Shown one piece after another: positions 1-37,864 of a stretch of DNA of 64,000 nt. The notes below the pieces were generated by a model that was not told the origin of the DNA, made no database searches, and saw only the letters and a program-made list of their open reading frames with translations. Every line of letters starts with the position of its first letter. Within the stretch, counting starts at the first letter, position 1. This DNA comes from Elusimicrobiota bacterium (lineage in GTDB: Bacteria; Elusimicrobiota; Elusimicrobia; F11), in NCBI GenBank assembly GCA_022072025.1, contig JAJVIP010000010.1:178050-242049 (forward strand). The letters are read 5' to 3'. The translations under genes and the position numbers were made by a program.

Positions 1-3000
1 GTCAATGGCCATATCCCCATATTGGACCCCTGCAGGAAACCATTTCAAAACACCTGGGGTGGACTTCAACTGAATCGCGTTCTGAAATTCGAGAATTAAT
101 CCGTTGTTCGGCCGGAGCGCCTCAATACACGGCCCAACAAGGTGACGATTGAAATATTGCGCGTACTTCACCCACAGACGGTCGGAATAACGGGGTGTTG
201 AATCTGGTCTATCAGCAAGCAGATTCTGACGTTGGACAAACCAAGGGTCAGGCGCAATGGGCGAACTCTCTAACTTTGATTCCCTCACGAGATAGCGCAC
301 CACCCAAGCATCAGGTTGTTCATCAGATGATGATCGAACCGCCTGCGCAATTTTTTCCATACACAAGTTATCGACCAGCCAGGAATATGAATTGTTTGCA
401 ATTCCAGCCCGAGCCGCCAAAAAGAGCATGTGAAGAAATGTCGCATTTGCATTTTTAAAGCCAAGTGGACGTTCTGGGTTGTTGTTGTAGAGATCGTGAA
501 GAAGGCGTTCATCAGCCGAATCCCACCTCTCAATGTCTTGATGAATAACCTCTTTCAGCGTATCGACAACAGGCTGGACAGGAGCTTCAAGCATGAGAAA
601 AATGGCATACAACCCGCCCAGCCTGGCCCTCCAAAGGTATTTGTCGGGATCAAAATCAGGTTCGATACGGGGATCAAAACCAACAGGAAGAAGCGGATTT
701 TTTAAATTTTCAAGAACAGCCCTCACAACCTCGGATGTTTTTGTCCCACTGCAAATATTCGCGGCAGATAAAGCCACATGATGATCCGGATCAGTCATTG
801 CCAAAAACAAGAGTCTGAGATCCTCTGGCTTGGCAGCATCCAACTCAGCGAAAATAAGAGCTTTTCGACGCTCCCAGTTTCGCCCCACAGGCCCAAGCCA
901 AACATACCTGCGGTAGCCCGCCTTTTTGGCCGTACCGTACGAGATCTTCATGCAAGAACTTAAATGAGAGAATTTCTCTCCGAGTCGCGAGTCAATCTCA
1001 GTCTCAAGAAAAGCCCTAATTTCACTCTCACGATCAAAGAGCGCCATAGCGAGTTGCTCCGTGGTTGCATTTTCAAATATCCTCGTGAAAGTTTGATCCA
1101 ATTCCTCCTCAAGGGTTGCAAGCGGCACGCCACGCAAGGATTTTTCTAGCGAGCGCTCGGCCACCCAAACCAGCCGTTGCTTGAATTCTTGAAGCATGGC
1201 TCGGTCTGAATTGCTTGCGAGCCGATTTTTTATGGTCCGTTCAAATAATTTTTGAACCTTTTCCTTCAGATCACGGGAATAATTCCGGGGGACATTCAAA
1301 TCCATATCCCCCCATCGGCCAGGGGTCAGATTGATCAACACGTTGGCCATTCGCTGAGCGAAGAAGAGAGTCAATATCACCGCTCCCTCCGTCCTTTCTA
1401 CGGCAAGCAACAACGCACGGTTCCCCCCGCGCCAATATCTCCACATCCAAATTCGCACGTACTCCAAAGAAAGGTTGACCGAAGCAGCAACACACAAGAC
1501 CAGCCCTCGGTTGTGGACGGCATCTGAGAAACCGGGCTCGGCCAGGAAGAGTTTCTGGCCTTCAAAGAGTTTATCGAGCGGGGTTTTTTCTTGGGCGAAA
1601 GGGGTCAGATAAGCCGGGCCTGCTTCCCGGTCCACCTTGGTCACCTTCGGAACGAAATCAATGACGGTGTGGCCGGCGTGGACGAGACGTTGAGTGAGAC
1701 CGGCAGAGTGGAAGCCACCGGCGACCAACAATGAAACCCCTCCTAACTCTCCTCGGCGAGTCGCCTTTGGCGACCTCCCCCCTGTGCGACGTGGGGAGGA
1801 ATATATAACGGACAACGATTGAAGAATATTTCGCGCCATTTTCTCATCGCGGATTTCGGCTTCTTCATAAAAAACTTCAAATTTCGATTTTCCATTTTCT
1901 ATTTTCGTCTTCTTGTACTCGTCCCACTCCTCTCTGGTCAACGCGAAATCCAGTAATTTTCTGGTGAGATATTGCCGTTTTCCCCTTTCCACCAGGTCCT
2001 GTTCATTCAATGTGGGTGAGAGGGCGGCATAGGTCTTATTTTCGACCTCACGCATCTCCCCAAAAAGTTTTTCCGCATCTATCCGTTCAGACAACGACAC
2101 ATAGCGCAGGTAATCCCGGAACGCCCGAAAAGGGGTGATGTCTATTCCATGCTTGCCGCAGAGGTCCCGCAAATAGCCATGAAAAGCGGTGTGATCCATC
2201 TGCCCCTTGCGGTACCACAGAGATTTCTCAAAAAACGATTGGGAGGCTTCTTTGGATAACTTCGGCAGGAGTTGAGAAAGAAGACGCGCTCGTTCAGCTT
2301 CAACTCGATTGAAATCGAGACTTGACTCAAGAGAGAAGGCTTCCCGAAAAATTTTCAACTGGGCCGAGTGGTTTTGGTCAAGGACAGCCCTTCGGGCTGC
2401 CACTTTTCCGGGGCCTGTATTCCCGGAAAAGTACTGCGAAGTGGAAACCCCGGACTTACGTCCGGGGCTTGTGCTGCAGTCAGGGAGAATTTTAATGTAA
2501 TCACCCAATGACATTGCACCTGCCCGGTAAGCGGTGACCGCACGGTCAAACGCCAAGAGCGCTGGATTCATGGATTTTTCTTTTTCGACTTCCAAGCGGC
2601 GACCATCATCCGCCCATTTCTTTTTCAAATCTTCCTGATGCGGCGCGGCCGAGCGGTACGCCTCGACGTTGGCGGCGTGGTGGGCGGGGTCGTCGACACC
2701 AAGAAGGGGTGGGAAGGAAAACGTATTTTTTTTAGGCGGACTCGTCATCAACGCATGAACCGGTCCCGATATTTTCCCTTGAGCCAGAAGAGTGTCCGCT
2801 GTTTTTTGGACGGCGGCTTGATCCGGAAAAATTTGGAATGCCTTTAAATCAATGGGGCCCGACGATCCTTCAAGAGCGACCTGGTCCACCATTCCTTGAT
2901 CGACCAGCGCCCGCACCGCCTTGCTGATGTTGGATTGGGCTTCGAAATTCTTATGGATATCTTGTATGAGAATAATGGCCGGGAATTTGGGATTTGGTGA

Positions 3001-3303
3001 TTTTGGCTGAGTCACTTTTCTAATACTGCCGAATTGAAGAAGCCCCTTAAGCGAATCATTTTCAAAATAATTTCTCCCGCTCTTCTTTTCGGGGGCGGGA
3101 ACATCCAACCCTGGTAAATTGAACATTCTTGGTTGGGGAGCGGGCAGAGCGGCCCATTGGCTGGAGTTGTTCTTATCGGAATTTGTCGCTTTCCTCCGCG
3201 CCTCCCACACATGGGTTTCGAATGAGTGCGCGAACGCGCAATTCGTCAAAAAATAGAGGAGGGCCAAGAGCACGATAAATGGTTGATTTCGGTATATTTT
3301 CAT
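1..3303 (-). CDS. Large predicted secreted protein of unknown function; N-terminus complete, C-terminus beyond left window edge (>=1100 aa); not in supplied ORF track
   Basis: Manual translation of the minus strand (codons occupying 3k+1..3k+3) gives one uninterrupted frame from ATG at 3303-3301 down to nt 1 with no stop. N-terminus MKIYRNQPFIVLLALLYFLTNCAFA resembles a Sec signal peptide. The track presumably omitted it because its stop lies outside the window. Only weak TraB/GumN-like motifs (QDIH, LLVAGGFHSAGL). Carries an in-frame copy of repeat family B at 2385-2482. Confidence 0.7.
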   Translation of the reverse strand, partial: MKIYRNQPFIVLLALLYFLTNCAFAHSFETHVWEARRKATNSDKNNSSQWAALPAPQPRMFNLPGLDVPAPEKKSGRNYFENDSLKGLLQFGSIRKVTQPKSPNPKFPAIILIQDIHKNFEAQSNISKAVRALVDQGMVDQVALEGSSGPIDLKAFQIFPDQAAVQKTADTLLAQGKISGPVHALMTSPPKKNTFSFPPLLGVDDPAHHAANVEAYRSAAPHQEDLKKKWADDGRRLEVEKEKSMNPALLAFDRAVTAYRAGAMSLGDYIKILPDCSTSPGRKSGVSTSQYFSGNTGPGKVAARRAVLDQNHSAQLKIFREAFSLESSLDFNRVEAERARLLSQLLPKLSKEASQSFFEKSLWYRKGQMDHTAFHGYLRDLCGKHGIDITPFRAFRDYLRYVSLSERIDAEKLFGEMREVENKTYAALSPTLNEQDLVERGKRQYLTRKLLDFALTREEWDEYKKTKIENGKSKFEVFYEEAEIRDEKMARNILQSLSVIYSSPRRTGGRSPKATRRGELGGVSLLVAGGFHSAGLTQRLVHAGHTVIDFVPKVTKVDREAGPAYLTPFAQEKTPLDKLFEGQKLFLAEPGFSDAVHNRGLVLCVAASVNLSLEYVRIWMWRYWRGGNRALLLAVERTEGAVILTLFFAQRMANVLINLTPGRWGDMDLNVPRNYSRDLKEKVQKLFERTIKNRLASNSDRAMLQEFKQRLVWVAERSLEKSLRGVPLATLEEELDQTFTRIFENATTEQLAMALFDRESEIRAFLETEIDSRLGEKFSHLSSCMKISYGTAKKAGYRRYVWLGPVGRNWERRKALIFAELDAAKPEDLRLLFLAMTDPDHHVALSAANICSGTKTSEVVRAVLENLKNPLLPVGFDPRIEPDFDPDKYLWRARLGGLYAIFLMLEAPVQPVVDTLKEVIHQDIERWDSADERLLHDLYNNNPERPLGFKNANATFLHMLFLAARAGIANNSYSWLVDNLCMEKIAQAVRSSSDEQPDAWVVRYLVRESKLESSPIAPDPWFVQRQNLLADRPDSTPRYSDRLWVKYAQYFNRHLVGPCIEALRPNNGLILEFQNAIQLKSTPGVLKWFPAGVQYGDMAID
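2385..2482. repeat. Palindromic repeat element, family B copy 1 (three consecutive hairpins), embedded in-frame in the 1-3303 CDS
   Basis: About 85% identical to 30598-30697. Hairpins: cagccc-ttcg-gggctg; acttttccgggg-cctgtat-tcccggaaaagt; ccccggac-tta-cgtccgggg. Translates in-frame as ...RKSGVSTSQYFSGNTGPGKVAAR... Confidence 0.6.
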
Positions 3304-3447
3304 CAAGAAACATTTAATCAAGAAGAGATTAAAACTCGATTAAGAACCTGTAAAAGAGTTGTAAAAATTCTCCCCTTTTGTAACACTTCGGCCCATGGAT
3401 ACCGTCGTAAATAAAGCCTGGGTGACAAGTTTGCCCCTCCCAAAACC

Positions 3448-4773
3448 ATGAAACTGGTCATTATCGGGGCCGGGCCGGCAGGCGAGGCGGCTGCCAAAAC
3501 AGCCAGGGCCCTTGGCTCTTCCCACACAGAACCCCTCGACATCACTCTCATTGAAAAAGAAGAGGTGGGAGGCTTGTGTCTCAACAAAGGCTGCATTCCA
3601 TCAAAAACACTTTTGGAAGAAGTGCGCAAACGCGTGCAAGGCGACCTTCCCATCACATGGCCGGAAATTCAATCCTTTAAAACAGAAGTTGTTTCAGGAA
3701 TTCGAGGCCAATTAGAAAACGCGTTTAAAACACAACGTATAAAACTGATCAAGGGATCCGCCCGGTTTAATTGGCCCTCCTCTCTTGAGATTGTGTCATC
3801 GAATGGAACCCAAACCATCCATTTTGATAAAGCGATTATTGCCACAGGAACCGCGTCTTTCTTCCCTCCCCCACTCGATCAATTTCGAGATCTTCTTTGG
3901 GACAGCGACCGCATGCTCAATATTTCTCACACCCCCAAAAGTATCATCATCGTGGGAGGGGGCGCCGTGGGATGCGAATTTGCCTGTCTGCTGAATGCCG
4001 CGGGGGCAAAAGTGACGTTGATTGAACTCAAAGACAATCTGCTCCCCGGAGAGGACCCCCAGATCGCGGAGGCCCTGGCCAAAATCTTTGAAGCCCGCGG
4101 CATGGTTATCAAAACAGGAAACAAGGTGGTCGCCGCAGAAAGAAATGAGCAGGGATGGCAATTGGCCCTCTCCAAAGGAGACATTCTCCAATCTGAAGAG
4201 GTGTTGGTGTGCGTGGGCCGACTTCCCGTTTATAAAGACCTTAATTTGGACTCCGCCGGAATTCGAACTGAAAACAACCGATTGGTTTTAGATGACCGTC
4301 TCCACACCACGAACCCCAACGTGTTGGCAGCAGGAGACGCCGCCACGACGCGATTGGCTCACGCGGCCGCGGTCCAAGGTGAGGTGGCGGCTATAAACGC
4401 TCTGGGAGGAAATGAACGGTTTGATGATTCCCTGACTCCTCGCTGCCTCTACAGTTGGCCGGAAGTGGCCAGCGTTGGGAAATGGAAATATCAGCTGGAG
4501 GAAGCCAACAAACCGGTCAAAACCACCCGGGCATTTTTCAAAGGATCATCGAAAGCCTTGGCGTCCAAGGAGGCCGAAGGATTTGTGCAAATTGTTTTCG
4601 ATCCCGACACAGGAAAAATTTTTGGCGCTCAAATAATCGGCCCTCACGCGACGGAACTCATCCACAACTTCTCCATCGCAATAAAAACACAAATGACTCT
4701 CAAAGATTTAAAACAAGTGATGTTCGCCCACCCCACCTTAAGTGAAGTGATTCGAGACGCCGCCCGAAGATAA
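3448..4773 (+). CDS. lpdA: Dihydrolipoyl dehydrogenase (E3 / glycine cleavage L-protein), FAD/NAD pyridine nucleotide-disulfide oxidoreductase
   Basis: N-terminal GAGPAG dinucleotide-binding motif, redox-active GGLCLNKGCIPSK disulfide motif, C-terminal dimerisation region; leads a lipA-gcv operon; TAATG stop/start overlap with lipA. Confidence 0.8.
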   Translation: MKLVIIGAGPAGEAAAKTARALGSSHTEPLDITLIEKEEVGGLCLNKGCIPSKTLLEEVRKRVQGDLPITWPEIQSFKTEVVSGIRGQLENAFKTQRIKLIKGSARFNWPSSLEIVSSNGTQTIHFDKAIIATGTASFFPPPLDQFRDLLWDSDRMLNISHTPKSIIIVGGGAVGCEFACLLNAAGAKVTLIELKDNLLPGEDPQIAEALAKIFEARGMVIKTGNKVVAAERNEQGWQLALSKGDILQSEEVLVCVGRLPVYKDLNLDSAGIRTENNRLVLDDRLHTTNPNVLAAGDAATTRLAHAAAVQGEVAAINALGGNERFDDSLTPRCLYSWPEVASVGKWKYQLEEANKPVKTTRAFFKGSSKALASKEAEGFVQIVFDPDTGKIFGAQIIGPHATELIHNFSIAIKTQMTLKDLKQVMFAHPTLSEVIRDAARR

Positions 4774-8676: not shown

Positions 8677-10184
8677 ACCCGCCCGAGAAATTATTGGTGG
8701 ATCAATCGGTCCCTGGCCGGCGCGCGGCAAGGATTCCGGCCTCACCGGTGTCTCAGCCGCTTGAAAAACTGGTCCCCGCCCATCTTCTCCGCAAGAAAAA
8801 ACCGCGTCTGCCGGAGGTTACCGAATTCCAGGTGGTTCGCCATTTCACGCGCCTTTCTCATTTGAATTTTTCAATTGACGCCAATTTTTATCCGCTGGGC
8901 AGCTGCACGATGAAATACAACCCCAAAGTCAATGATGCCATCTCTGCCCTGCCGGGTTTTCGGCTCTCCCATCCTTTGGCGCCCGACGCCGTCAACCAAG
9001 GCATTCTTGAGTTGCTGTTTGATTTGGAACAGTGGCTCTGCAAAATGGCGGGCATGGACGCTTTCACCTTGCACCCCGCGGCTGGCGCGCATGGAGAATT
9101 TTGCGGCATTTTGATTGCATTGGCCTATCATCGATCAAAGGGTCACAAGAAAAATGTGGTGCTTGTTCCGGACTCAGCTCACGGCACCAACCCCGCCAGC
9201 GCGGCCATGGCGGGCCTGAGCGTCGTGCAAGTCAAATCCCAACCCAATGGTCATATTGATATGGCTGATTTCCGCTCCAAACTGAATGACGATGTGGCGT
9301 TGGTCATGATGACATTGCCGAATACCTTGGGTCTTTTTGAGGAAGAAACCGAAGCCCTCACGCGCGAGGCTCATGCCAAAGGCGCCTTGGTCTATTTGGA
9401 CGGAGCCAATTTCAACGCCTTGGCCGGCCTGATCCGCCCTGGCGATTTGGGTTTTGACATCTGCCACATCAATCTGCACAAAACTTTCTCCACACCGCAT
9501 GGCGGCGGTGGCCCCGGCGCCGGGCCCGTGGGTGTCAAAAAAGCTCTCGAACCCTTTCTTCCGGTTCCCCGCGTGATCAAAGAAAATGGCGTATTTCATT
9601 TACGGGATTCAAAACATCAATTCCCACAATCCATCGGACAACTTCGCAGTTTTGCTGGAAACACCGGAATTCTCATTCGAGCCTACACTTACATGTTGTC
9701 CTTGGGCGAGAACGGTGTCAAAGAAATGAGCCGCCGAGCCATCCTCAATGCCAACTACGTCCGTGTGCGACTCTCAAAACTTTTCAAGGCGGTGTTGAAC
9801 GAACCTTGTATGCATGAGGCGGTTTTCTCAGGTGTGACCCTTCATGATTATGGACTCAAAACACTGGATTTGGCCAAACGGTTGCTCGATTATGGTTATT
9901 ACGCGCCCACCATCTATTTCCCGCTGATCGTTCCCGAGGCTCTCATGATTGAACCCACGGAAACGGAAACGCCCGAAACGTTAGAAGAATTCTGCAACAC
10001 CATTGAGAAAATTATGGAGGAAGCCAAAACCAACCCCACGCTTCTCCAAACGGCCCCTCACACGACACCTGTTCGACGCTTGGACGAGGTCAAAGCGGCT
10101 CGCGACCCCATTCTCAAATGGGACGGCTGGGACGAAACATTGGTATTCCATGCTGGCCACTCAGCCCACTTTCAAAATCGTTGA
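8673..10184 (+). CDS. gcvPB: Glycine dehydrogenase (decarboxylating) subunit 2, PLP-dependent
   Basis: 503 aa; PLP-lysine region CHINLHKTFSTPHGGGGPG; C-terminal half of split P-protein. Confidence 0.9.
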   Translation: MNPPEKLLVDQSVPGRRAARIPASPVSQPLEKLVPAHLLRKKKPRLPEVTEFQVVRHFTRLSHLNFSIDANFYPLGSCTMKYNPKVNDAISALPGFRLSHPLAPDAVNQGILELLFDLEQWLCKMAGMDAFTLHPAAGAHGEFCGILIALAYHRSKGHKKNVVLVPDSAHGTNPASAAMAGLSVVQVKSQPNGHIDMADFRSKLNDDVALVMMTLPNTLGLFEEETEALTREAHAKGALVYLDGANFNALAGLIRPGDLGFDICHINLHKTFSTPHGGGGPGAGPVGVKKALEPFLPVPRVIKENGVFHLRDSKHQFPQSIGQLRSFAGNTGILIRAYTYMLSLGENGVKEMSRRAILNANYVRVRLSKLFKAVLNEPCMHEAVFSGVTLHDYGLKTLDLAKRLLDYGYYAPTIYFPLIVPEALMIEPTETETPETLEEFCNTIEKIMEEAKTNPTLLQTAPHTTPVRRLDEVKAARDPILKWDGWDETLVFHAGHSAHFQNR

Positions 10185-10212
10185 TTCCGGCCCCCTTCCT
10201 GGGGAACGGAAT

Positions 10213-10842
10213 ATGGAGATCGACCGCGCCGCATTGGAAGACATCCAACTCAACGCCTTGAGTAATCCCATACTTCGTTTCTTTGAGTGGACCACACCTA
10301 CGGTCACTTATGGATATCTGCTTGAATTTGAAGAGGTCAAAAAATGGGCGTCTCCCCATGGCGCGCTACCGCTCGTTAAGCGCCCGACCGGCGGAGGAGC
10401 CGTTTTGCATTCCCCCTCTGACTTGAGCCTTTCTCTCCTTTGGCCAAGAGGCATGGGTTATTTCTCTGAAACTCCCCGCGCGTGTTATGCGGAAATTCAT
10501 TCCATTATTTTGAAAACGTTGATCTCGTCTGGTGAAATTGGAAAGGCCTTCTTATACAAAGCCGCCATCCCCACAAAGGCGGGGATACAGGCCTCCCACC
10601 CTTCGTTCAAATGCAAGTCGAAAGACTGGATTCCCGCCTCCGCGGGAATGACGAAGGTACCCGCCTGCTTTCAGGAACCGGTCTGCAATGATCTGATGCA
10701 AGATGGTAAAAAGATTTTGGGGGGAGCGCTTCGGATCACCAGAGATGCCATTTTGTATCAGGGAACTCTGCAGATAGCGGCCTCAATAGACTGGGGCCAA
10801 CTCAAAAATCGATTGGCGGAGAACTTTAACCATGGCCGCTAA
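10213..10842 (+). CDS. Lipoate/octanoate-protein ligase family protein (LplA/LipM-type octanoyl- or lipoyl-transferase)
   Basis: KRPTGGGAVLH motif typical of the biotin/lipoate A/B ligase fold. The track ORF (10003-10842) overlaps gcvPB by 182 nt; trimmed to ATG at 10213 preceded by GGGGAAcGGA, giving 209 aa. Confidence 0.65.
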   Translation: MEIDRAALEDIQLNALSNPILRFFEWTTPTVTYGYLLEFEEVKKWASPHGALPLVKRPTGGGAVLHSPSDLSLSLLWPRGMGYFSETPRACYAEIHSIILKTLISSGEIGKAFLYKAAIPTKAGIQASHPSFKCKSKDWIPASAGMTKVPACFQEPVCNDLMQDGKKILGGALRITRDAILYQGTLQIAASIDWGQLKNRLAENFNHGR

Positions 10843-15014: not shown

Positions 15015-15103
15015 CCGTCATCCCGGCCGGAAAACGTGCCGGGGCGACAGCGTCTTGTGCAGTAGCTTTAAGTACGATTCAACTGAATTATTCAGGTTAA
15101 ATA
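15015..15103. repeat. Palindromic repeat element, family A copy 1 (short variant) in the dapB-dapL spacer
   Basis: gtcatcccggc-cggaaaacgt-gccggggcgac outer stem plus gattcaactgaattattcaggttaa tail shared with 21913-22050 and 34897-35030; lacks the inner ggccgggatccaggtttt/aaaacctgggccccggcc hairpin. Confidence 0.55.
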
Positions 15104-20582: not shown

Positions 20583-21842
20583 GGCTGAAAGGAATGGCCT
20601 GTGGCTTTCGTCAATCGAGCCTGAGATATCTGAAGTTCCAAACGCGCGTCAATTAAATTGATGTTGGCCTCCGCGCGCCACTTTAAATAGTCCAATCGTT
20701 GAGATAAAGAGAAAGACTCCCGTTCTGATTCCTTAAGGGCTTTGAGTTGCCTCCCACGAACATCCACCTCATTTTTCCAATGAGTCCAATCGCTATGCGC
20801 GGTCCGGACTTCCATTTCAACTTTGTCTTCCAACTGCACCCGCCGCAGTCGGCCTTGATCGGCTCTATAACGGCTCTCCTTAACGCGGGCCCAACTGGAA
20901 AATCCATCGAATATTGGAATGTTCATGACCAAAGCGGCATTCCAGTTCGTGTCCTCAATGGGGAATTCCTCATTGCGGAGCTCCACATTTCCCCCCAGTA
21001 AAAAAACCGGATAGCGTTCTGACCGGGAAAGCTCCACGGACAGTTGATCCACCTCTTCTTGTATTTGCGTGTCTTTGAGTTCGGCCCGATATTGTTTGGC
21101 CCATACAAGAAGAGTCTGCAATTCAGGGATAACAAAATCGTTATCTAAAGTTCCTTTGGGTTCAACATCGCCAAAAAGTTCGAGGCCCATCGACTCCAAA
21201 TACTGGAAACGTGTAGATTGCTCTTGTTGCTGAAAATCGCTGAGAAGTTTACGCGTATTGGCCTGAGCCGCCATCAAGGCCAGACGGGCGTGAACGGTAG
21301 AAGACTGCTTGGATAATTTTTCAATTTCGATAAGTTCATCAGATAAAATTTTCTGTTTTTGATGAAGCGCCAATAGTCGGTAAAAATTTTCCGTTGTTTG
21401 ACAGCGCACATGATGCCGAACCGTTTCAACCGCGCTTTCCGCGCGGCGCAACCCCGCTTGTGACAACCGATGCGTGGTGCTGACTTTCCCCCCCGCGTAC
21501 AAGGTCTGAAGAAATCCCAAACGTCCCAAATAGAGATTTTGGGCCAATGGATTTCCCCGCGACTCATCCTTGCTTTGTTGCACCGGAGCTTCCAACACAA
21601 TCCCTCCCAGTTCCGGACTGGTCACCCCCAGAGTTTCATGACGATAACGCACATAATCCAAGTTTAAATTGATCTTGGGATAATAAAGGGATTGGGCTTG
21701 CCGAACCTGGGTTTTTGCGACCGATAAATCTTTTCTCGCCAACAGAAGTTCCGGGTTGTTTTTCTCCGCGCGCTCAAGACTCTCAGGCAAAGTGAGTTGC
21801 TCAGCTGAAAAAACCGTGGACCCCGCCAGCATGATCGTCATT
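20579..21842 (-). CDS. TolC-family outer membrane efflux protein (start uncertain)
   Basis: The track ORF (to 22084) runs through repeat element A2. The TolC-like mature N-terminus LTLPESLERAEKNNPELLLARKDL follows MTIMLAGSTVFSA; ATG at 21842. The true start may lie further upstream, possibly inside the repeat element. Confidence 0.7.
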
Positions 21843-21912
21843 CCCACGAAAACAGGAATCCAGCTTCTTAACCCGAATAATTCAGTTGAATGGCCATTAC
21901 CGTCTATCAACA

Positions 21913-22050
21913 GTGAATATTTTTGTGCCGTCATCCCGGCATGTTTTCTGGCCGGGATCCAGGTTTTCTTCATGGGGAAAACCTGGGCCCCGGCCAAAAG
22001 ATTGCCGGGGCGACGATTCAACTGAATCATTCCGGTTAAAATCATGAATG
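21913..22050. repeat. Palindromic repeat element, family A copy 2 (full length, nested hairpins) in the argH-TolC spacer
   Basis: gtgaatattttt...gtcatcccggc-atgttttct-ggccgggatccaggtttt-cttcatgggg-aaaacctgggccccggcc-aaaagatt-gccggggcgac-gattcaactgaatcattccggttaaaatcatgaat; ~90% identical to 34897-35030. Confidence 0.6.
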
Positions 22051-30597: not shown

Positions 30598-30697
30598 GGC
30601 TCCACACGACGGAGCCACTTTTCCGGGGCTTGTATCCCCGGAAAAGTACCGCGGTAAGGTAACCCCGGACTTACGTCCGGGCTTTGGCCGCAGTAAA
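30598..30697. repeat. Palindromic repeat element, family B copy 2 (three consecutive hairpins), in the gspE/HK divergent spacer
   Basis: ggctcc-acacgac-ggagcc; acttttccgggg-cttgtat-ccccggaaaagt; ccccggac-ttac-gtccggg. First hairpin differs in sequence but keeps its pairing relative to copy 1 (compensatory). Confidence 0.6.
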
Positions 30698-32948: not shown

Positions 32949-33020
32949 CCCCATTCGATCGCTCCAAATGATGACGCATCAGTTTCCTGTTTTTCCACGA
33001 ATAAATTTTCGGATTGCATT

Positions 33021-33047
33021 CCTCCCCACGCCGTACAGTGGGGAGGT
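33021..33047 (+). terminator. GC-rich hairpin downstream of the response regulator (possible terminator lacking U-tract)
   Basis: cctccccac-gccgtacag-gtggggagg: 9-bp perfect stem, 9-nt loop, 73 nt after the RR stop; no T-run follows. Confidence 0.3.
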
Positions 33048-33196
33048 TGGGAGGGGCAACAAGTGGGGACTCTATAGTTTTTTCAAGGCGACCCTCCTCG
33101 TCGCCTGCCGGGACATCGACAGAGCAATGTCACGTTATTTCCTGCGGTTGTCTTAGGCGTTCCATTAACAGAACGAATTCTTTATAATCCCGTTCT

Positions 33197-34519
33197 ATGA
33201 AGAGTACGGAAGATACCCGATACAGTCTAAGAATTCTATTGGCAGAATCTCATGAGAAAACCTGGCCATCCTTAATCAAACGCGATTTCAATTGGGATTT
33301 GCTGAGTTCCACGCGATTACTCACCTTGGTTGGACCGCGTCGTGCAGGAAAAACTTTTCTGTGTTACCAAATCCTACGCCACCTACTGGACCAAGGGACC
33401 CCACGCCACCGTTTGCTCTATCTCAATTTTGAAGATGAAAGGCTTTATCCCATGTCTGGTCAGGAGCTCACTCTTTTATTGGATGTGTACGAAGAACTCT
33501 TTCCTTGGAAATCAGCGGACCCTCTCTATGTGGTTCTAGACGAGATTCAGAACGTGCCGCAGTGGTCGAGATGGGCCCGGCGGGTACATGAACAGCATCC
33601 CAAGCTTCATTTAATTCTGACCGGATCTTCCTCAAAATTGCTTTCAACTGAGCTGGCCACAGAACTGCGCGGACGAACTTTGGGTTTCTCCGTCTATCCC
33701 TATTCATTCAGTGAGAGACTTCGCGCGGAGGGCGAGGATAACGCCGTATCATCTCTCATGCTTCATGGCCGGGGAAAAAATCGTATGAGACGGTCATTTG
33801 ATCAATTTCTGCTTAAAGGAGGATTTCCAGAACCGTGCCTGCAAGAAAATCCACAACCTGTTTTGCAGTCTTACTATCAAACGATGTTCATGAGAGATCT
33901 GGTTGAACGATATCGAATTAACAACGTGCCTTTATTTGAGGATTTTCTCAAAGTGGCCATCAGCCGTTTCGGATCTCTTTTTTCGGTTTCAGCGCTCCAC
34001 AAAGAACTCGAAGCGCGACATGGCCGAGTGAGCAAAGCGACGCTTGTTCAATACACGCGCTACGCGCGCGAGGTATTTCTTCTCTTCGAACTTCACCGTT
34101 TTGACTTCAAAATAAGGCGCCAACTGTTGCACCCTCGAAAGCTCTATGGCGTGGACGTGGGCCTTTTGAATGCTATTCGCTTTTCCTCCACAGAGGATCG
34201 AGGAAGACTTCTGGAAAACGCGGTTTATCTCGAGCTGCTCCGGCGACCCGCCGAGCTTTATTTTTGGCGACAGGAAGCCGAGTGTGATTTCCTAATAAAA
34301 GAGGGGAAAAAAGTAACGCAAGCCATTCAAGTATCTTGGTCGGTGGAAAAACCTGAAACCCGGGAACGGGAGTTAAGAGGGCTTCTAGAGGCAACCACCC
34401 AGTTTCATTTGAAAGAAGGACTCATTTTAACGGCCGGAGAAACAGCTGATTTCAAACGAGAACACTGCCGTATTCGAGTTCGACCTTTTTGGTACTGGGC
34501 TATAGGAGGGCAAAATTAA
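33197..34519 (+). CDS. AAA+ ATPase of the COG1373 / DUF4143 family
   Basis: 440 aa; Walker A GPRRAGKT, Walker B VVLDEIQ, DUF4143-like C-terminal region; TATAAT at 33183-33188 just upstream of the ATG suggests a short or absent leader. Confidence 0.75.
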   Translation: MKSTEDTRYSLRILLAESHEKTWPSLIKRDFNWDLLSSTRLLTLVGPRRAGKTFLCYQILRHLLDQGTPRHRLLYLNFEDERLYPMSGQELTLLLDVYEELFPWKSADPLYVVLDEIQNVPQWSRWARRVHEQHPKLHLILTGSSSKLLSTELATELRGRTLGFSVYPYSFSERLRAEGEDNAVSSLMLHGRGKNRMRRSFDQFLLKGGFPEPCLQENPQPVLQSYYQTMFMRDLVERYRINNVPLFEDFLKVAISRFGSLFSVSALHKELEARHGRVSKATLVQYTRYAREVFLLFELHRFDFKIRRQLLHPRKLYGVDVGLLNAIRFSSTEDRGRLLENAVYLELLRRPAELYFWRQEAECDFLIKEGKKVTQAIQVSWSVEKPETRERELRGLLEATTQFHLKEGLILTAGETADFKREHCRIRVRPFWYWAIGGQN

Positions 34520-34535
34520 CCCCAGTGCTTGCCGG

Positions 34536-36110
34536 TTAGGCCGCGGAGAGAAGGGCGCGGCGCTGAAGTCCCCAATCCTCTAGCTGAAGAATTTTAGAAA
34601 GGCCCTCCAACGATTCAAACAAGATTTTCAATAAAGTTTGATCCTTCGACTGGATCGTCACGGCGCGAGAGTGAATAAAGGCCAGTTGAGCCAGACTCAG
34701 ATTGTTTTGTTGAGCGAAACCCTCCGCCCGAAAGACCTTCTTTCCTTCTTTCGTATTCTCAAACCATGAGGCTCGCGCCATACTTGCACTATCCGCGTCG
34801 TCCTGGACACGAATATCCATATTTCGATTTTGAAACTCGCGGATGACACTCATTATTCTGGAATTTTCAGTTGAACGACCATTATCGCCTGTTGACGGTG
34901 AATCTTTTAGAGTCGTCATCCCGGCATGCTTCCTGGCCGGGATCCAGGTTTTTTCCTCAGAGAAAACCTGGGCCCCGGCCAAAAGATTGCCGGGGCGACG
35001 ATTTATCTGAATATTTCCGGTTAATGAATCGCTCAAGCCCCCTTCGCCTTCCACAACAACCCTCACCTCTTGTTGGAAGTGGAAAGCCACCACCAACGCC
35101 GACTTCAATTGATCTCTCATGGATTTGGGATTTTCCATCATCGACCGGTCCACCACAAGGACGCTGATTTTTCGAGTTAACAGCCCCCGCAACAACTCAA
35201 GATCCTGCGGTTTCTCGCCGGCCAACGCCAGTATTCCCACCACCAACTCCTTGTCTTTCTCCCGAATGTTGATCCCCTGTAAAACGTTGTGAAAGCCTGC
35301 TTGAAAATCACGGTTCGCAACAAGCTGGCTCAGTTGTAGGGGCGACGTCTCCAAGCCCCTCCCTTTTTTCCCGGATACGTCCGAAACCCGAATCCCCTCG
35401 CCAACCAAGGTCCATTGCACCGCTTGGCCAGGTTCTTGTTGGATCAGCGCCTTCACAATTTTCCCCAACCGCTGGCCGGCCAGATAAGAAGGGGGGAGAG
35501 AAGTCAGAAACGGCGCCGTGGCGATGGCAGTACGGTCTGGGCGGCGATCATTCCAGTCTTTGTGGAAAATCCAAAAATAATAGAGCTGGAAAAACACCAG
35601 GCCAACAACCGCGCTCCCCATCAACCACGCGCCGACAGCTCCGCTCAGCAATGAGTTCCAAAGTAAGAGAAGAACCCAGGAAGCCAAAACCCCCGGAGAA
35701 TGGAATTTCAGAGAGCCCATAAAAATTTCGATGCGATCCAAGGGCGTGGCGTGGTCAAGCCGATAGACCCACCCCTTGTTTTCCAGACTTTTAATCACCA
35801 CTTGATTCCAGTGCGGCAACAAGAACAAAATATTGACCCCCACATGAATGACCAAAGCCATCACGGCCGCGGAACTCGCCTCCAGACCGATGAGATCCCC
35901 CTCCGAAGTCGCTTTAATGAACAAAAGCCAAATCGCGATCACATTGGCCATCGTGTACATCATCGTGGCAATCAACACTTCCTTCTTTAAGGCCTCTTTA
36001 ACACTCTCAGGGTTGACCTTCCTTTCATCATTGACCTCCACCAACGACGGCCACATGGCTTGAGGAGAAGAACTTTCTTTTCCGTTTTTATTATATGTTG
36101 TATTAAACAA
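34536..36110 (-). CDS. Multi-pass membrane protein of unknown function with in-frame repeat-element A insertion (possible ATG start at 36056)
   Basis: Track start is a TTG at 36110; ATG at 36056 (MWPSL...) is an alternative. Several hydrophobic helices in the N-terminal 200 aa; the family A element at 34897-35030 is read through in-frame (...NRRPGNLLAGAQVF..KTWIPARKHAGMT...). Confidence 0.5.
   Translation of the reverse strand: MFNTTYNKNGKESSSPQAMWPSLVEVNDERKVNPESVKEALKKEVLIATMMYTMANVIAIWLLFIKATSEGDLIGLEASSAAVMALVIHVGVNILFLLPHWNQVVIKSLENKGWVYRLDHATPLDRIEIFMGSLKFHSPGVLASWVLLLLWNSLLSGAVGAWLMGSAVVGLVFFQLYYFWIFHKDWNDRRPDRTAIATAPFLTSLPPSYLAGQRLGKIVKALIQQEPGQAVQWTLVGEGIRVSDVSGKKGRGLETSPLQLSQLVANRDFQAGFHNVLQGINIREKDKELVVGILALAGEKPQDLELLRGLLTRKISVLVVDRSMMENPKSMRDQLKSALVVAFHFQQEVRVVVEGEGGLSDSLTGNIQINRRPGNLLAGAQVFSEEKTWIPARKHAGMTTLKDSPSTGDNGRSTENSRIMSVIREFQNRNMDIRVQDDADSASMARASWFENTKEGKKVFRAEGFAQQNNLSLAQLAFIHSRAVTIQSKDQTLLKILFESLEGLSKILQLEDWGLQRRALLSAA
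34897..35030. repeat. Palindromic repeat element, family A copy 3, inside the 34536-36110 CDS
   Basis: ~90% identical to 21913-22050 including flanking gtgaat...tgaat motifs; 134 bp; no stop codons in the host frame. Confidence 0.6.
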
Positions 36111-36122
36111 TAATATAGGTTA

Positions 36123-37379
36123 TTGTTTTTTACCATGAAATCACTATACACCACTATTGAAGCCCATAAGAGAGAGAGAGATTTGGCGCTTCGCCGGACT
36201 CTCGTCCCCCGCCATATGAGCGCCGCCCTTTCGAAAGCGCTTTCTTCCCCTCTGGTGAAAGTCATTACAGGACCCCGCCGGGCCGGGAAGTCCACCTTGG
36301 CTTTTCAGACTCTTTCTGGGAAAAATTTCGCCTATCTCAATTTCGAAGATGATGCGCTGAAAAGCGATGTCACCAGCGACGAGCTGATCGAAGCCATGGA
36401 TGAGGTGTACGGAAAAGCCGAATATGTCTTCTTTGATGAAATTCAGAACTATCCTCAATGGGAAAGCTTCATCAACAAATTACACCGCCGTGAGCACAAC
36501 CTGGTCATTACCGGCTCAAATTCAAGGCTCCTGAGTCGAGAATTGGGATCGGCTCTCACGGGCCGGCATCTTTCTTTCGAGTTATTGCCTTTTAGTTATC
36601 AAGAGTTTTTGGCTGCGCTTTCAAATAACACAAGCAATGACATGAAAAATTTTCACCGGTACTTAACATGGGGCGGTTTTCCCGAAGTTGTTCTTGGGAA
36701 TTCCGAACCGCACGGATACTTGCGCACTCTTTTTGATTCGGTCGTCCTGCGCGATATTGTGACCCGTCACCACATCCGTTCCTCATTGGCTATTCATGAT
36801 CTGCTGAACCTTCTCATCAATAACGCAACAAGCCGGTTTTCAGCGCGAAGCCTGGAACGATCCTTGGGCTCACTCTCCATCGCCACCGTTCAGAAATTCA
36901 TTGCCTATTTTCGTGAGGCCTATTTGGTCCATGACCTTCAACCGTACTTCTTCAAGCCGCGGTTGAGAATCAAGGCAGACCGCAAAATCTATGCCTATGA
37001 CAATGGCTTGATTTCCGCCGTCTCACAGCCCACCACCTCAAATCAATCGCGGCTGCTTGAGAACCTGGTTTTTATTGAACTCGTGCGGCGCGGATTCAAA
37101 CCAAATCTCGATTTATTCTATTACCAAACTCGATCCGGCAACGAAGTGGATTTCTTGGTTCGGAATGGATCAAAGAACATTGAGCTCATTCAAGTGACGC
37201 AAAACCTTGCCGCCTTAAAAACCCGTGAACGAGAGCTTCGCTCCCTTCATCAGGCGTCAGAAGAACTCAATGTCTCCAAACTCACCATCCTCACCATGGA
37301 TACGGAAGAAACAATCAAAGAAAGCGGGATTCGAATTCGCGTGATCCCATGCCAGAAATGGCTGTTAGAAAAAATCTGA
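36123..37379 (+). CDS. AAA+ ATPase of the COG1373 / DUF4143 family (paralog of 33197-34519)
   Basis: 418 aa; Walker A GPRRAGKST, Walker B VFFDEIQN, same architecture as the other copy; divergent from the membrane-protein gene with a short AT-rich spacer. Confidence 0.75.
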   Translation: MFFTMKSLYTTIEAHKRERDLALRRTLVPRHMSAALSKALSSPLVKVITGPRRAGKSTLAFQTLSGKNFAYLNFEDDALKSDVTSDELIEAMDEVYGKAEYVFFDEIQNYPQWESFINKLHRREHNLVITGSNSRLLSRELGSALTGRHLSFELLPFSYQEFLAALSNNTSNDMKNFHRYLTWGGFPEVVLGNSEPHGYLRTLFDSVVLRDIVTRHHIRSSLAIHDLLNLLINNATSRFSARSLERSLGSLSIATVQKFIAYFREAYLVHDLQPYFFKPRLRIKADRKIYAYDNGLISAVSQPTTSNQSRLLENLVFIELVRRGFKPNLDLFYYQTRSGNEVDFLVRNGSKNIELIQVTQNLAALKTRERELRSLHQASEELNVSKLTILTMDTEETIKESGIRIRVIPCQKWLLEKI

Positions 37380-37492
37380 CATTCAGCCTCATCAACCAAC
37401 ACCGACGGTTTTTGATGATTCAGGCGGGTTTTTTAGGGGTTTCTCTTATGACAAAAGGAATAAGTGTTTCAGACCTTTTGACATCGACGTTT

Positions 37493-37864
37493 TTAGCGGA
37501 GTTTTTCGTAACTTTTTTGACTTCCGTATTGGAGACATAAATTCCGGAAGGAATCTGATTCAATGTCGATGTTGTTTTCCTTGATCAGCGCCGCAATATC
37601 CAGCAAATCTTTTAATTCCCGTCTTTCCGGATTTTGTTTGATGGCATGCAACTTCATTGCGATAAGATGATCTAAGCTTGGGACAATAAAAGGCTCTCCT
37701 GAAATCGTGATTTCCTGGCCATCCCTGATGACGGCTTTTAAGGTTTCTTCATCAGTGAACAAGAAATCGATGTCTTTCGTCTCCCGAGAAAATTTGTAGT
37801 GATTCACAGCAAATCCGCCGATCAAAACACTCGGTAAATTTTTTTCACGAAAGAGCCGCCCCAA
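37493..37864 (-). CDS. Small nucleotidyltransferase-fold-like protein (AbiEii/MNT-like motif); candidate immunity or accessory gene of the giant ORF
   Basis: 123 aa, TTG start 22 nt after the giant-ORF stop, same strand; LIGGFAVNHYKFSRETKDIDFLF resembles the GG..A......R.T.DIDF nucleotidyltransferase motif. Confidence 0.45.
   Translation of the reverse strand: MGRLFREKNLPSVLIGGFAVNHYKFSRETKDIDFLFTDEETLKAVIRDGQEITISGEPFIVPSLDHLIAMKLHAIKQNPERRELKDLLDIAALIKENNIDIESDSFRNLCLQYGSQKSYEKLR

What the first reader, a model, noticed from the sequence alone, without database searches (positions are those of the whole stretch)
21913..22050. Repeat family A: ~135-bp nested-hairpin element in 3 copies (MITE/REP-like)
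Three copies share gtcatcccggc ... gccggggcgac outer arms and a gattcaactgaat.att.cggttaa tail:
- 21913-22050 and 34897-35030 are ~90% identical full-length versions with an inner near-perfect hairpin ggccgggatccaggtttt / aaaacctgggccccggcc.
- 15015-15103 is a short variant in which the inner hairpin is replaced by cggaaaacgt.

No transposase accompanies them, which is consistent with a non-autonomous miniature element or a REP/BIME-like structured repeat. Copy 2 overlaps the 5-prime end of the TolC-like gene and may contribute its start codon or signal peptide.
Basis: seen in the sequence. Interest (0 to 1): 0.65.

Follow-up and report, generated by a model that had tools for sequence, protein, structure and literature searches.

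The report
Small mobile palindromic repeat inside genes
A 172-bp repeat with inverted ends is scattered over at least four contigs of one uncultured Elusimicrobiota genome, and some copies sit in frame inside protein-coding genes; it is a new family of a well-known kind of small parasitic DNA, not a new mechanism.

Summary
The repeat is real, but it is larger than reported. Copies 1 (21868-22039) and 2 (34853-35024) are 172 bp each. Copy 3 (15016-15100) is a half element.

The core is two inverted small hairpins (CGTCAT-stem-loop-stem-CCAGG). These belong to the NTS/Ssn-related hairpin family known from Neisseria and many phyla. This core occurs without T modules in a syntenic relative and in unrelated genomes.

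The window comes from one Elusimicrobiota metagenome-assembled genome (MAG), locus tags KCHDKBKB. Translating the element and searching protein databases found four more copies on three other contigs, so this is a dispersed family, not a local duplication. No copy with T modules was found in any other public collection scanned.

Net length is a multiple of three and two frames are open. Copy 1 sits after codon 3 of the TolC-like gene, ahead of its signal peptide; orthologues lack the 56 residues. Other copies split CoaB and a 4451-aa protein in frame.

Best reading: a non-autonomous transposable element that inserts at TTAA and behaves like the Rickettsia palindromic elements. Its transposase is unknown. 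It is a new member of a known kind, of moderate interest.

The parts
21868..22039 (.). Copy 1, the full 172-bp element: TTAA/T-left, 37-nt spacer, hairpin-doublet core, T-right/TTAA. It is inserted in frame in the 5' end of the TolC-like gene.
   Evidence: (D19, I9); the annotated protein P0008 reads through it
21868..21891 (+). Left terminal inverted repeat (T module), TTAACCCGAATAATTCAGTTGAAT
   Evidence: (I6, I9)
21929..22015 (.). Core 'H-long', two inverted small hairpins. Unit A is 21929-21963 (+): CGTCATCCCGGC-N10-GCCGGGATCCAGG. Unit B is 21982-22015 (-): CGTCGCCCCGGC-N9-GCCGGGGCCCAGG. The core also folds as nested outer and inner stems.
   Evidence: the same core occurs alone in L002, L029 and L013
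22016..22039 (-). Right terminal inverted repeat (T module), ending in TTAA
   Evidence: (I9); an independent Logan contig confirms the argH-to-T junction
34853..35024 (.). Copy 2, 172 bp. Its left T module is decayed (16/24 identical to copy 1). It lies in frame inside the orphan ORF KCHDKBKB_01732.
15016..15100 (.). Copy 3, a half element: single hybrid hairpin (15016-15048), 27-28-nt spacer, T module (15077-15100). The terminal TTAA supplies the dapB stop codon.
   Evidence: (I6); the spacer is homologous to the extra 9 residues in P0002
22043..22060 (-). ATG start (22045-22043) and GGGAGA ribosome-binding site (22060-22055) of the TolC-like gene, immediately outside the element
21836..21863 (+). 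Degenerate single NTS-like hairpin, 4 nt from the left TTAA of copy 1. It encodes WIPVFVGMT in the TolC signal peptide.
   Evidence: 3 mismatches to the NTS consensus
10566..10654 (.). Separate NTS-type hairpin doublet without T modules, in frame inside the LipM gene. The 10626-10653(-) unit matches the Neisseria NTS consensus with 1 mismatch.

Best explanation
This is a lineage-restricted, non-autonomous transposable element of the MITE kind. It is 172 bp long, with variants of 199 and about 235 bp. Its ends are 24-nt terminal inverted repeats finishing in TTAA.

It most likely moves, or moved, by a transposase supplied in trans that recognises the inverted repeats and inserts at TTAA, duplicating those 4 bp. 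That step is inferred.

The interior is a GC-rich inverted doublet of NTS/Ssn-related hairpins. The T-bounded element either captured this doublet or was invaded by it. The whole T-core-T unit then spread; the spread is shown.

The net inserted length is 168, 195 or 231 nt, all multiples of three. The two frames that read TTAA as TTA|A contain no stop codon. Insertions at Leu-codon TTAA sites inside genes therefore add a roughly 56-residue peptide instead of destroying the gene, as with Rickettsia palindromic elements. Copies are seen in the TolC-like signal-peptide region, in CoaB and in a giant protein, as well as at gene ends.

Copy 3 and copy 2 are decaying or rearranged copies.
For: **Dispersal.**
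- The window is a contig of the MAG 'Elusimicrobia bacterium' KCHDKBKB.
- Translated-element searches found further copies in KCHDKBKB_01431, _01998, _02950 and _02925, on contigs of 279,917, 130,905 and 79,122 nt.
- All of these keep both T modules around the core.

**Boundaries and ends.**
- Homology between copies 1 and 2 stops exactly at the TTAA ends (82% inside, 26-27% outside).
- The terminal inverted repeat is 22/24 complementary (I9).

**Empty orthologous sites.**
- Three relatives lack the element between argH and TolC: syntenic L033 and L036, and the shorter L035, which keeps argG-argH-TolC.
- TolC orthologues of 61-71% identity lack the 56 residues and begin directly with a signal peptide.
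- Removing 168 nt from the window gene gives MILRSWIPVFVGMTIMLAGSTVFSA|EQ, behind the existing ribosome-binding site and ATG.
- At copy 3's position the relative has cgTTAAat at the dapB stop codon.

**In-frame insertions.**
- CoaB aligns to PDB 5int residues 20-132 before the insert and 126-208 after it.
- With the insert deleted, the CoaB domain (Pfam DFP) becomes one stretch and scores higher: 171.9 against 168.9 bits.
- P0014 stays open for about 530 codons before the insert and about 3,860 after it.

**Open frames.** Two stop-free frames occur in both window copies.

**Repeat status in the raw data.** An independent assembly of the same sample breaks inside copy 1 on both sides.

**No encoded function or homologue.** No transposase is in the window, and there is no Rfam family.
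Against: - No cognate insertion sequence or transposase with matching ends has been seen.
- The 4-bp target duplication is inferred from TTAA at both ends and from reading-frame arithmetic, not from a true filled-versus-empty pair in the same species.
- Only two full copies are available as DNA. The rest are known only as translated peptides.
- Copy number looks low: at least 7, found by a method biased towards copies inside annotated ORFs.
- The core belongs to a hairpin family that a published study links to a single-strand nuclease (PMC11893778). A hairpin-directed mechanism is therefore not excluded.
- Two open frames are only mildly unusual: 3% of mononucleotide shuffles and 9% of palindrome-preserving shuffles reach this.
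- Whether the CoaB gene is functional is uncertain. Its annotated ORF lacks the N-terminal 19 residues of the domain.
Confidence: 0.6

Rival explanations
1. The element is a hairpin-directed repeat, like a REPIN. On this reading the active part is the hairpin doublet. It would be copied through single-stranded DNA by a hairpin-specific enzyme, such as an Ssn-type GIY-YIG nuclease or a RAYT/IS200-like HUH transposase. The T modules would be only the outer part of one long palindrome that happened to be amplified.
For: - The core units have the oriented architecture of NTS/Ssn-related motifs: a CGTC head, an 8-bp stem, and C after the stem (PMC11893778).
- 10626-10653 matches the NTS consensus with 1 mismatch.
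- The same doublet occurs without T modules in a syntenic relative (L029, L013), in other metagenomes (L002, L003), and as doublets in Nocardia, Syntrophobacteraceae, Anaerolineales and others.
- Stems differ between genomes while staying complementary.
- The whole element folds into one long hairpin, -93.9 kcal/mol.
Against: - Every full copy known keeps both T modules and the same spacer, with sharp TTAA-ended boundaries. This is the signature of inverted-repeat-defined transposition, not of REP-type spread.
- The strict published SRM pattern finds no hit in the window.
- The head is not the GTAG typical of RAYT-associated REPs.
- No GIY-YIG or HUH gene is in the window.
- Copy number is far below that of typical REP populations.
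Confidence: 0.25
2. The element is a functional structured RNA or regulatory DNA site, for example an mRNA stabiliser or terminator like REP/BIME, an RNase III processing site like Correia elements, or an operator. Selection, not mobility, would maintain it.
For: - The predicted structure is very stable.
- Three copies sit at gene boundaries or 5' ends (copy 1, copy 3, P0003).
- Six of seven copies have the same orientation relative to the host gene.
Against: - There is no Rfam match.
- Promoter and terminator scans give nothing above shuffled expectation at the copy 1 and copy 3 regions, and no terminator on the sense (-) strand within copy 2.
- Copies lie in the middle of CoaB and of a 4451-aa ORF.
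- Orthologous positions in relatives are empty or hold a different hairpin family.
- The orientation bias is what open-frame filtering would produce.
Confidence: 0.06
3. The copies come from local segmental duplication or from an assembly artefact of the MAG.
For: Three of the seven or more known copies lie within 20 kb on one contig.
Against: - The flanks are unrelated: 26-27% identity.
- Other copies lie on three other contigs, in unrelated genes.
- An independent Logan assembly of SRR10609165 reproduces both junctions of copy 1 and all of copy 3.
Confidence: 0.02

Closest known systems
Rickettsia palindromic elements (RPE; Ogata et al. 2000, as summarised in PMC10969869)
   Same: Both are short palindromic repeats of about 100-170 bp with an open reading frame. 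Both insert in frame into unrelated housekeeping genes and add a peptide without abolishing the ORF.
   Different: No sequence relation was found. This family is in Elusimicrobiota, not Rickettsia. It has clear 24-nt terminal inverted repeats with TTAA ends. Its copy number is low. Its core is an NTS-type hairpin doublet.
Bacterial MITEs with inverted-repeat ends and a short target duplication (e.g. Correia/NEMIS, ERIC, Coxiella QMITE1, Anabaena MITEs; PMC10969869, PMC5896051)
   Same: Size, terminal inverted repeats, no transposase of its own, dispersed copies, strong secondary structure, occasional intragenic in-frame copies.
   Different: The ends are TTAA rather than the TA of Correia or IS630-derived MITEs. 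No parent insertion sequence is known. The family was found in only one MAG among the collections scanned.
NTS / Ssn-related motifs (dRS3-containing hairpins cleaved as ssDNA by the GIY-YIG nuclease SsnA; PMC11893778)
   Same: The core hairpins share the CGTCAT head, the 8-bp stem and the C(C/Y)AG tail. One hairpin in the window (10626-10653) is an NTS with 1 mismatch, and relatives carry exact NTS sequences (L036).
   Different: The finding is a 172-bp composite bounded by unrelated inverted repeats. Unit A misses the strict SRM pattern by one loop base. Association with an ssnA gene could not be tested.
REPINs / BIMEs (inverted REP doublets mobilised by RAYT; PMC3116915, PMC3337134)
   Same: The core is an inverted doublet of two short imperfect palindromes that together form a long hairpin.
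   Different: There is no GTAG head, no RAYT is seen, there are few copies, some copies are intragenic, and extra terminal inverted repeats are present.

Membership tests
Prokaryotic MITE | Small size (about 50-500 bp) and no transposase gene | tested here: met
   172 bp. Its only stop-free frames give a 56-57-aa peptide, and no Pfam transposase is among the window ORFs.
Prokaryotic MITE | Terminal inverted repeats | tested here: met
   24-nt arms, 92% complementary, in copy 1 (I9); decayed in copy 2.
Prokaryotic MITE | Target-site duplication flanking each copy | tested here: inconclusive
   - TTAA is at both ends of copy 1 and at the right ends of copies 2 and 3.
- Frame arithmetic fits a net insertion of 168 or 195 nt, that is total length minus 4.
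- The relative has TTAA at copy 3's site.
- No same-species empty site was available.
Prokaryotic MITE | Multiple dispersed copies in unrelated contexts | tested here: met
   At least 7 copies on 4 contigs.
Prokaryotic MITE | A cognate insertion sequence with the same ends | not testable with these tools
   The rest of the MAG's DNA could not be fetched. The T pattern is absent from the GTDB representatives, JGI metagenomes and IMG/VR.
RPE-like in-frame palindromic elements (functional class) | Insertion inside coding sequence that preserves the host reading frame on both sides | tested here: met
   - CoaB.
- TolC-like.
- 4451-aa ORF.
RPE families of Rickettsia (sequence membership) | Sequence homology to an RPE family | not tested
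   No RPE sequences were compared. The profile search of 1.84 billion proteins returned no full-element match outside this MAG, and the only partial matches were unnamed metagenome ORFs.
NTS / Ssn-related motif (PMC11893778) | Match to the NTS consensus CGTCATTCCCGCGMAVGCGGGAATCYRG with at most 1 mismatch | tested here: not met
   The element's core units do not match. Only the separate hairpin at 10626-10653 does, with 1 mismatch; 21836-21863 has 3.
NTS / Ssn-related motif (PMC11893778) | Match to the degenerate SRM pattern HGTCWYN(0-2)YYVSBRHN(0-5)WNVSBRGN(0-2)RNCYNB | tested here: not met
   There are 0 strict hits in the window.
NTS / Ssn-related motif (PMC11893778) | Genomic association with an ssnA (GIY-YIG cd10448) gene | not testable with these tools
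   Pfam scans of the ORFs of 123 aa or more show no GIY-YIG domain, and none is apparent by eye among the short ORFs of 1-3500.
REP / REPIN-RAYT | Inverted doublet of short palindromes | tested here: met
   Units A and B in the core.
REP / REPIN-RAYT | Conserved GTAG-type head and a flanked single-copy RAYT gene | tested here: not met
   The heads are CGTCAT and CGTCGC. No HUH/Y1 transposase is in the window. Presence of a RAYT elsewhere in the genome is untestable.

The most novel reading that the evidence does not exclude
The T-core-T unit may be a 'coding-compatible' mobile cassette whose length (a multiple of three) and two stop-free TTA|A-phased frames are selected properties. On this reading it would be mobilised by a TTAA-specific bacterial transposase not yet linked to MITEs, or by the Ssn-type single-strand nuclease system. 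That would tie NTS/SRM hairpins directly to a transposition mechanism and to the insertion of peptides into essential proteins.
Probability: 0.12. Interest if true: 0.65.

Novelty: new member of a known kind. Interest (0 to 1): 0.38.

Why it matters
- It adds Elusimicrobiota, a phylum sampled almost entirely through MAGs, to the short list of lineages where small palindromic mobile DNA inserts in frame into housekeeping genes. That list includes Rickettsia RPEs, Coxiella QMITE, ERIC and Anabaena MITEs.
- It shows a concrete case of an NTS/Ssn-related hairpin doublet riding inside an element bounded by inverted repeats.
- It matters for annotation. The TolC-like, CoaB, LipM and giant-protein models of this MAG contain repeat-derived peptides, and the true start and signal peptide of the TolC-like protein are affected.
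- It does not reveal a new mechanism.

Tried and rejected
**Searches for the element elsewhere**
- The exact or degenerate T-module pattern gave 0 hits in the GTDB representative genomes, JGI metagenomes and IMG/VR.
- A looser paired-T pattern in the metagenomes gave 20 hits, all unrelated palindromes.
- The H-long core pattern gave no hits in viral contigs, and the element had no match in plasmids.
- The DNA of the other MAG copies could not be fetched, because exact-protein look-ups returned nothing. Those copies are therefore known only as peptides.

**RNA and regulatory signals**
- Rfam at gathering threshold found nothing on the whole window. At a permissive E-value it found only a sub-threshold mir-634 hairpin match.
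- Promoter and terminator scans gave nothing above shuffled expectation at the copy 1 and copy 3 regions. The copy 2 region gave a few more consensus matches than the shuffle mean, none on the sense strand within the element.

**Host genes**
- Homologues of the orphan ORF that holds copy 2: none apart from element-sharing proteins. In-frame insertion into a real gene cannot be claimed there.
- Deleting the insert from the DUF2063 protein P0001 did not improve its weak C-terminal domain match. That case stays unverified.

**Classification tests**
- The strict SRM pattern gave no hit.
- Rejected: local duplication, assembly artefact, tRNA or other known RNA, CRISPR-like array.

Full report
**1. 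What is in the sequence**

Aligning them and searching for repeats shows that the two long copies are larger than reported.

Homology between them runs from 21868 to 22039 and from 34853 to 35024, 172 nt each with no indels. Identity is 82% overall, 91% in the hairpin core, and 26-27% in the 100 nt on either side (D19, 21, 98).

I call this the T module: TTAACCCGAATAATTCAGTTGAAT. Its left arm lies at 21868-21891, and 22 of 24 bases are complementary (I9). Both arms end in TTAA. The module occurs three times in the window at 2 or fewer mismatches, against none in 100 shuffles.

The layout of a full copy is:
- T-left
- a 37-nt spacer
- an 87-nt core
- T-right

Copy 2 has a decayed left arm (16/24 identical to copy 1). 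Copy 3 (15016-15100) is a half element: one T module, a 27-nt spacer and a single hairpin built from the two outer arms of the core. It has no second end. Its terminal TTAA supplies the stop codon of dapB.

**2. Structure**

The core consists of two inverted copies of a small oriented hairpin:
- Unit A: CGTC-ATCCCGGC-loop-GCCGGGAT-CCAGG
- Unit B, on the other strand: CGTC-GCCCCGGC-loop-GCCGGGGC-CCAGG

The AT-to-GC difference is mirrored on both sides of each stem.

Predicted folding is far more stable than shuffled sequence:
- copy 1: -93.9 kcal/mol as RNA, z = -10.7
- copy 2: z = -6.5
- copy 3: z = -3.95
- copy 1 folded as DNA: z = -7.8

No Rfam family matches. Promoter and terminator scans give nothing above shuffled expectation at the copy 1 and copy 3 regions; around copy 2 there are a few consensus matches above the shuffle mean, but no terminator on the sense strand within the element.

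**3. Source and copy number**

Exact-protein look-ups show that the window is part of a 316,220-nt contig of a MAG annotated 'Elusimicrobia bacterium', locus tags KCHDKBKB_017xx.

The T pattern gives no hit in the GTDB representatives, JGI metagenomes or IMG/VR.

I therefore translated the element and searched protein databases, because repeats often end up inside annotated ORFs. This found four more copies in the same MAG, on three other contigs:

| Protein | Locus tag | Host protein |
|---|---|---|
| P0001 | KCHDKBKB_01431 | DUF2063 protein |
| P0002 | KCHDKBKB_01998 | CoaB |
| P0003 | KCHDKBKB_02950 | DUF5683 protein |
| P0014 | KCHDKBKB_02925 | 4451-aa protein |

All four retain both T modules around the core. 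P0002 also has the 27-nt spacer seen in copy 3. P0003 has an additional 63-nt nested insertion.

The family therefore has at least seven copies on four contigs. This is a lower bound, and it comes from a method biased towards copies inside ORFs.

An independent Logan assembly of run SRR10609165 has contigs that end at window position 22010 and start at 21951. It breaks inside copy 1 from both sides, as expected for a sequence repeated elsewhere in that sample. It runs straight through copy 3.

**4. Relation to genes**

The net inserted length is the distance between the two TTAA starts. It is 168 nt for copies 1, 2 and P0001, 195 nt for P0002 and about 231 nt for P0003. All are multiples of three.

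In both window copies exactly two of the six frames are free of stop codons, one on each strand. Both read the terminal TTAA as TTA|A. At least two open frames occur in 3% of mononucleotide shuffles and 9% of palindrome-preserving shuffles, so this is only mildly unusual.

*Copy 1.* The annotated TolC-like protein (KCHDKBKB_01720, 488 aa) starts at ATG 22045, behind a GGGAGA ribosome-binding site. It reads through the element. Removing the 168 nt gives MILRSWIPVFVGMTIMLAGSTVFSA|EQLTL, a canonical signal peptide. Nine orthologues of 61-71% identity are 424-457 aa long and lack these 56 residues; in the alignment of five of them, each begins directly with a signal peptide followed by the conserved LTL..SLE motif. 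In three relatives the TolC gene follows argH directly, with no element between them (L033, L035, L036). Two of these keep the wider gene order.

*CoaB (P0002).* Residues 1-114 align to PDB 5int residues 20-132, and residues 193-271 align to 126-208. With the insert deleted, the CoaB domain (Pfam DFP) becomes a single stretch and scores higher.

*P0014.* The reading frame stays open for about 530 codons before the insert and about 3,860 after it.

*Copy 2.* It lies in frame inside an annotated 506-aa ORF. That ORF has no homologues, so it may not be a real gene.

*P0001.* The insertion is near the C-terminus and could not be verified.

*Copy 3 and P0003.* These are at gene boundaries. At copy 3's site, the syntenic relative has cgTTAAat at the dapB stop codon and a different hairpin family in the spacer.

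**5. What the core is**

The small hairpins match the repeat family described in PMC11893778. That paper defines the Neisseria 'NTS', CGTCATTCCCGCGMAVGCGGGAATCYRG, and the broader 'Ssn-related motifs'. It reports that these are cut as single-stranded DNA by the GIY-YIG nuclease SsnA and occur across several phyla.

- In the window, 10626-10653(-) matches the NTS with one mismatch, and 21836-21863(+) with three.
- Relative L036 carries exact NTS sequences.
- Unit A of the element has the same head, stem length and tail. It fails the paper's strict degenerate pattern because its loop is one base too long.

The exact unit-A pattern occurs at 29 places in GTDB representative genomes. The taxa include Nocardia, Luteimonas, Anaerolineales, Syntrophobacteraceae, Planctomycetota and Elusimicrobiota, and the pattern usually has an inverted partner nearby.

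The syntenic relative MAG_MBR_H10.43 has nearly the same 87-nt core standing alone, without T modules (L029, L013). So do two unrelated metagenome contigs (L002, L003). No T module was found in any of about 225 kb of other loci.

The core is therefore an older, widespread unit. The T-bounded composite is specific to this MAG.

**6. Mechanism**

*Shown:*
- a dispersed repeat with sharp, TTAA-ended, inverted-repeat boundaries
- no transposase of its own
- empty orthologous sites in relatives
- in-frame persistence inside genes

*Inferred:*
- movement by a trans-acting transposase that binds the T modules
- insertion at TTAA with a 4-bp duplication
- tolerance of intragenic copies because of the multiple-of-three length and the open frames, which is the behaviour of Rickettsia palindromic elements (PMC10969869)

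The main rival is hairpin-directed copying through single-stranded DNA, by an Ssn or RAYT type of enzyme. Its support is the identity of the core. Against it, every full copy keeps both T modules and the spacer.

A selected RNA or regulatory role is unlikely, given the mid-gene copies and the empty orthologous sites. Local duplication and assembly artefact are excluded.

**7. Novelty and verdict**

Each feature has precedent:
- MITEs with inverted repeats and short duplications
- in-frame palindromic elements (RPE, QMITE1, intragenic ERIC, Anabaena MITEs)
- NTS/SRM hairpins
- REPIN-like doublets

What is new is the family itself. It has no relative with T modules in any collection searched. 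Its host phylum is new for this behaviour, and it combines TTAA-ended inverted repeats with an NTS-type doublet core.

I rate it a new member of a known kind, with moderate interest. It has practical consequences for the gene models of this MAG.

Noticed in passing
window 37887-63959 (-): A single 8,690-aa ORF built from about 245-aa tandem repeats (repeat families D1-D18). It fills 40% of the window.
   Followed up: no
window 10566-10654, inside LipM gene 10150-10842 (+): An NTS-type hairpin doublet without T modules lies in frame inside the annotated octanoyltransferase LipM (MCG3204989.1). It encodes ...IPTKAGIQ...WIPASAGMT.... The loop is 18 aa longer than in the syntenic relative and about 37 aa longer than in PDB 2ars.
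   Followed up: partly
window 1760-1802 and 33018-33060; L035 2603-2645; L033 16910-16995: A second, unrelated hairpin repeat family (ATTCCTCCCC..GGGGAGG.TGGGAGGGG.AAC) occurs in the window. It also occurs in the relatives' intergenic regions, including the dapB-aminotransferase spacer where the window has copy 3.
   Followed up: partly
P0003; L028 2369-2480; L031; L003 1670-1822: There is a third level of nesting. Short inserts of 17-63 nt, with ends TACC...GGGAC, split unit B of the core at CCCCG|GCC in several genomes.
   Followed up: no
window 1-3448: 3.4 kb with no ORF longer than 91 aa and no significant Rfam match. It contains several palindromes (I2, I4, I12, I18).
   Followed up: partly
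window 2402-2432 and 30617-30647: A near-identical 31-nt palindrome, ACTTTTCCGGGGCCTGTATTCCCGGAAAAGT, occurs at two distant sites. It looks like a terminator.
   Followed up: no
window 33197-37864: Copy 2 sits in what looks like a variable island: two paralogous AAA_14/DUF4143 ATPases, an orphan 506-aa ORF and an AbiEii toxin fragment.
   Followed up: partly
P0002 (KCHDKBKB_01998, another contig of the MAG): The annotated CoaB ORF begins at position 17 of the CoaB domain profile (residue 20 of PDB 5int). It lacks the N-terminal nucleotide-binding motif and any CoaC part, so the gene may be disrupted upstream as well.
   Followed up: no
L036 1426-1448, 4389-4469, 15409-15431: An Elusimicrobiota relative (GCA_964463805.1) carries hairpins that match the Neisseria NTS consensus exactly, including an inverted doublet between two genes. 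The main text of the Ssn paper does not mention this phylum.
   Followed up: partly
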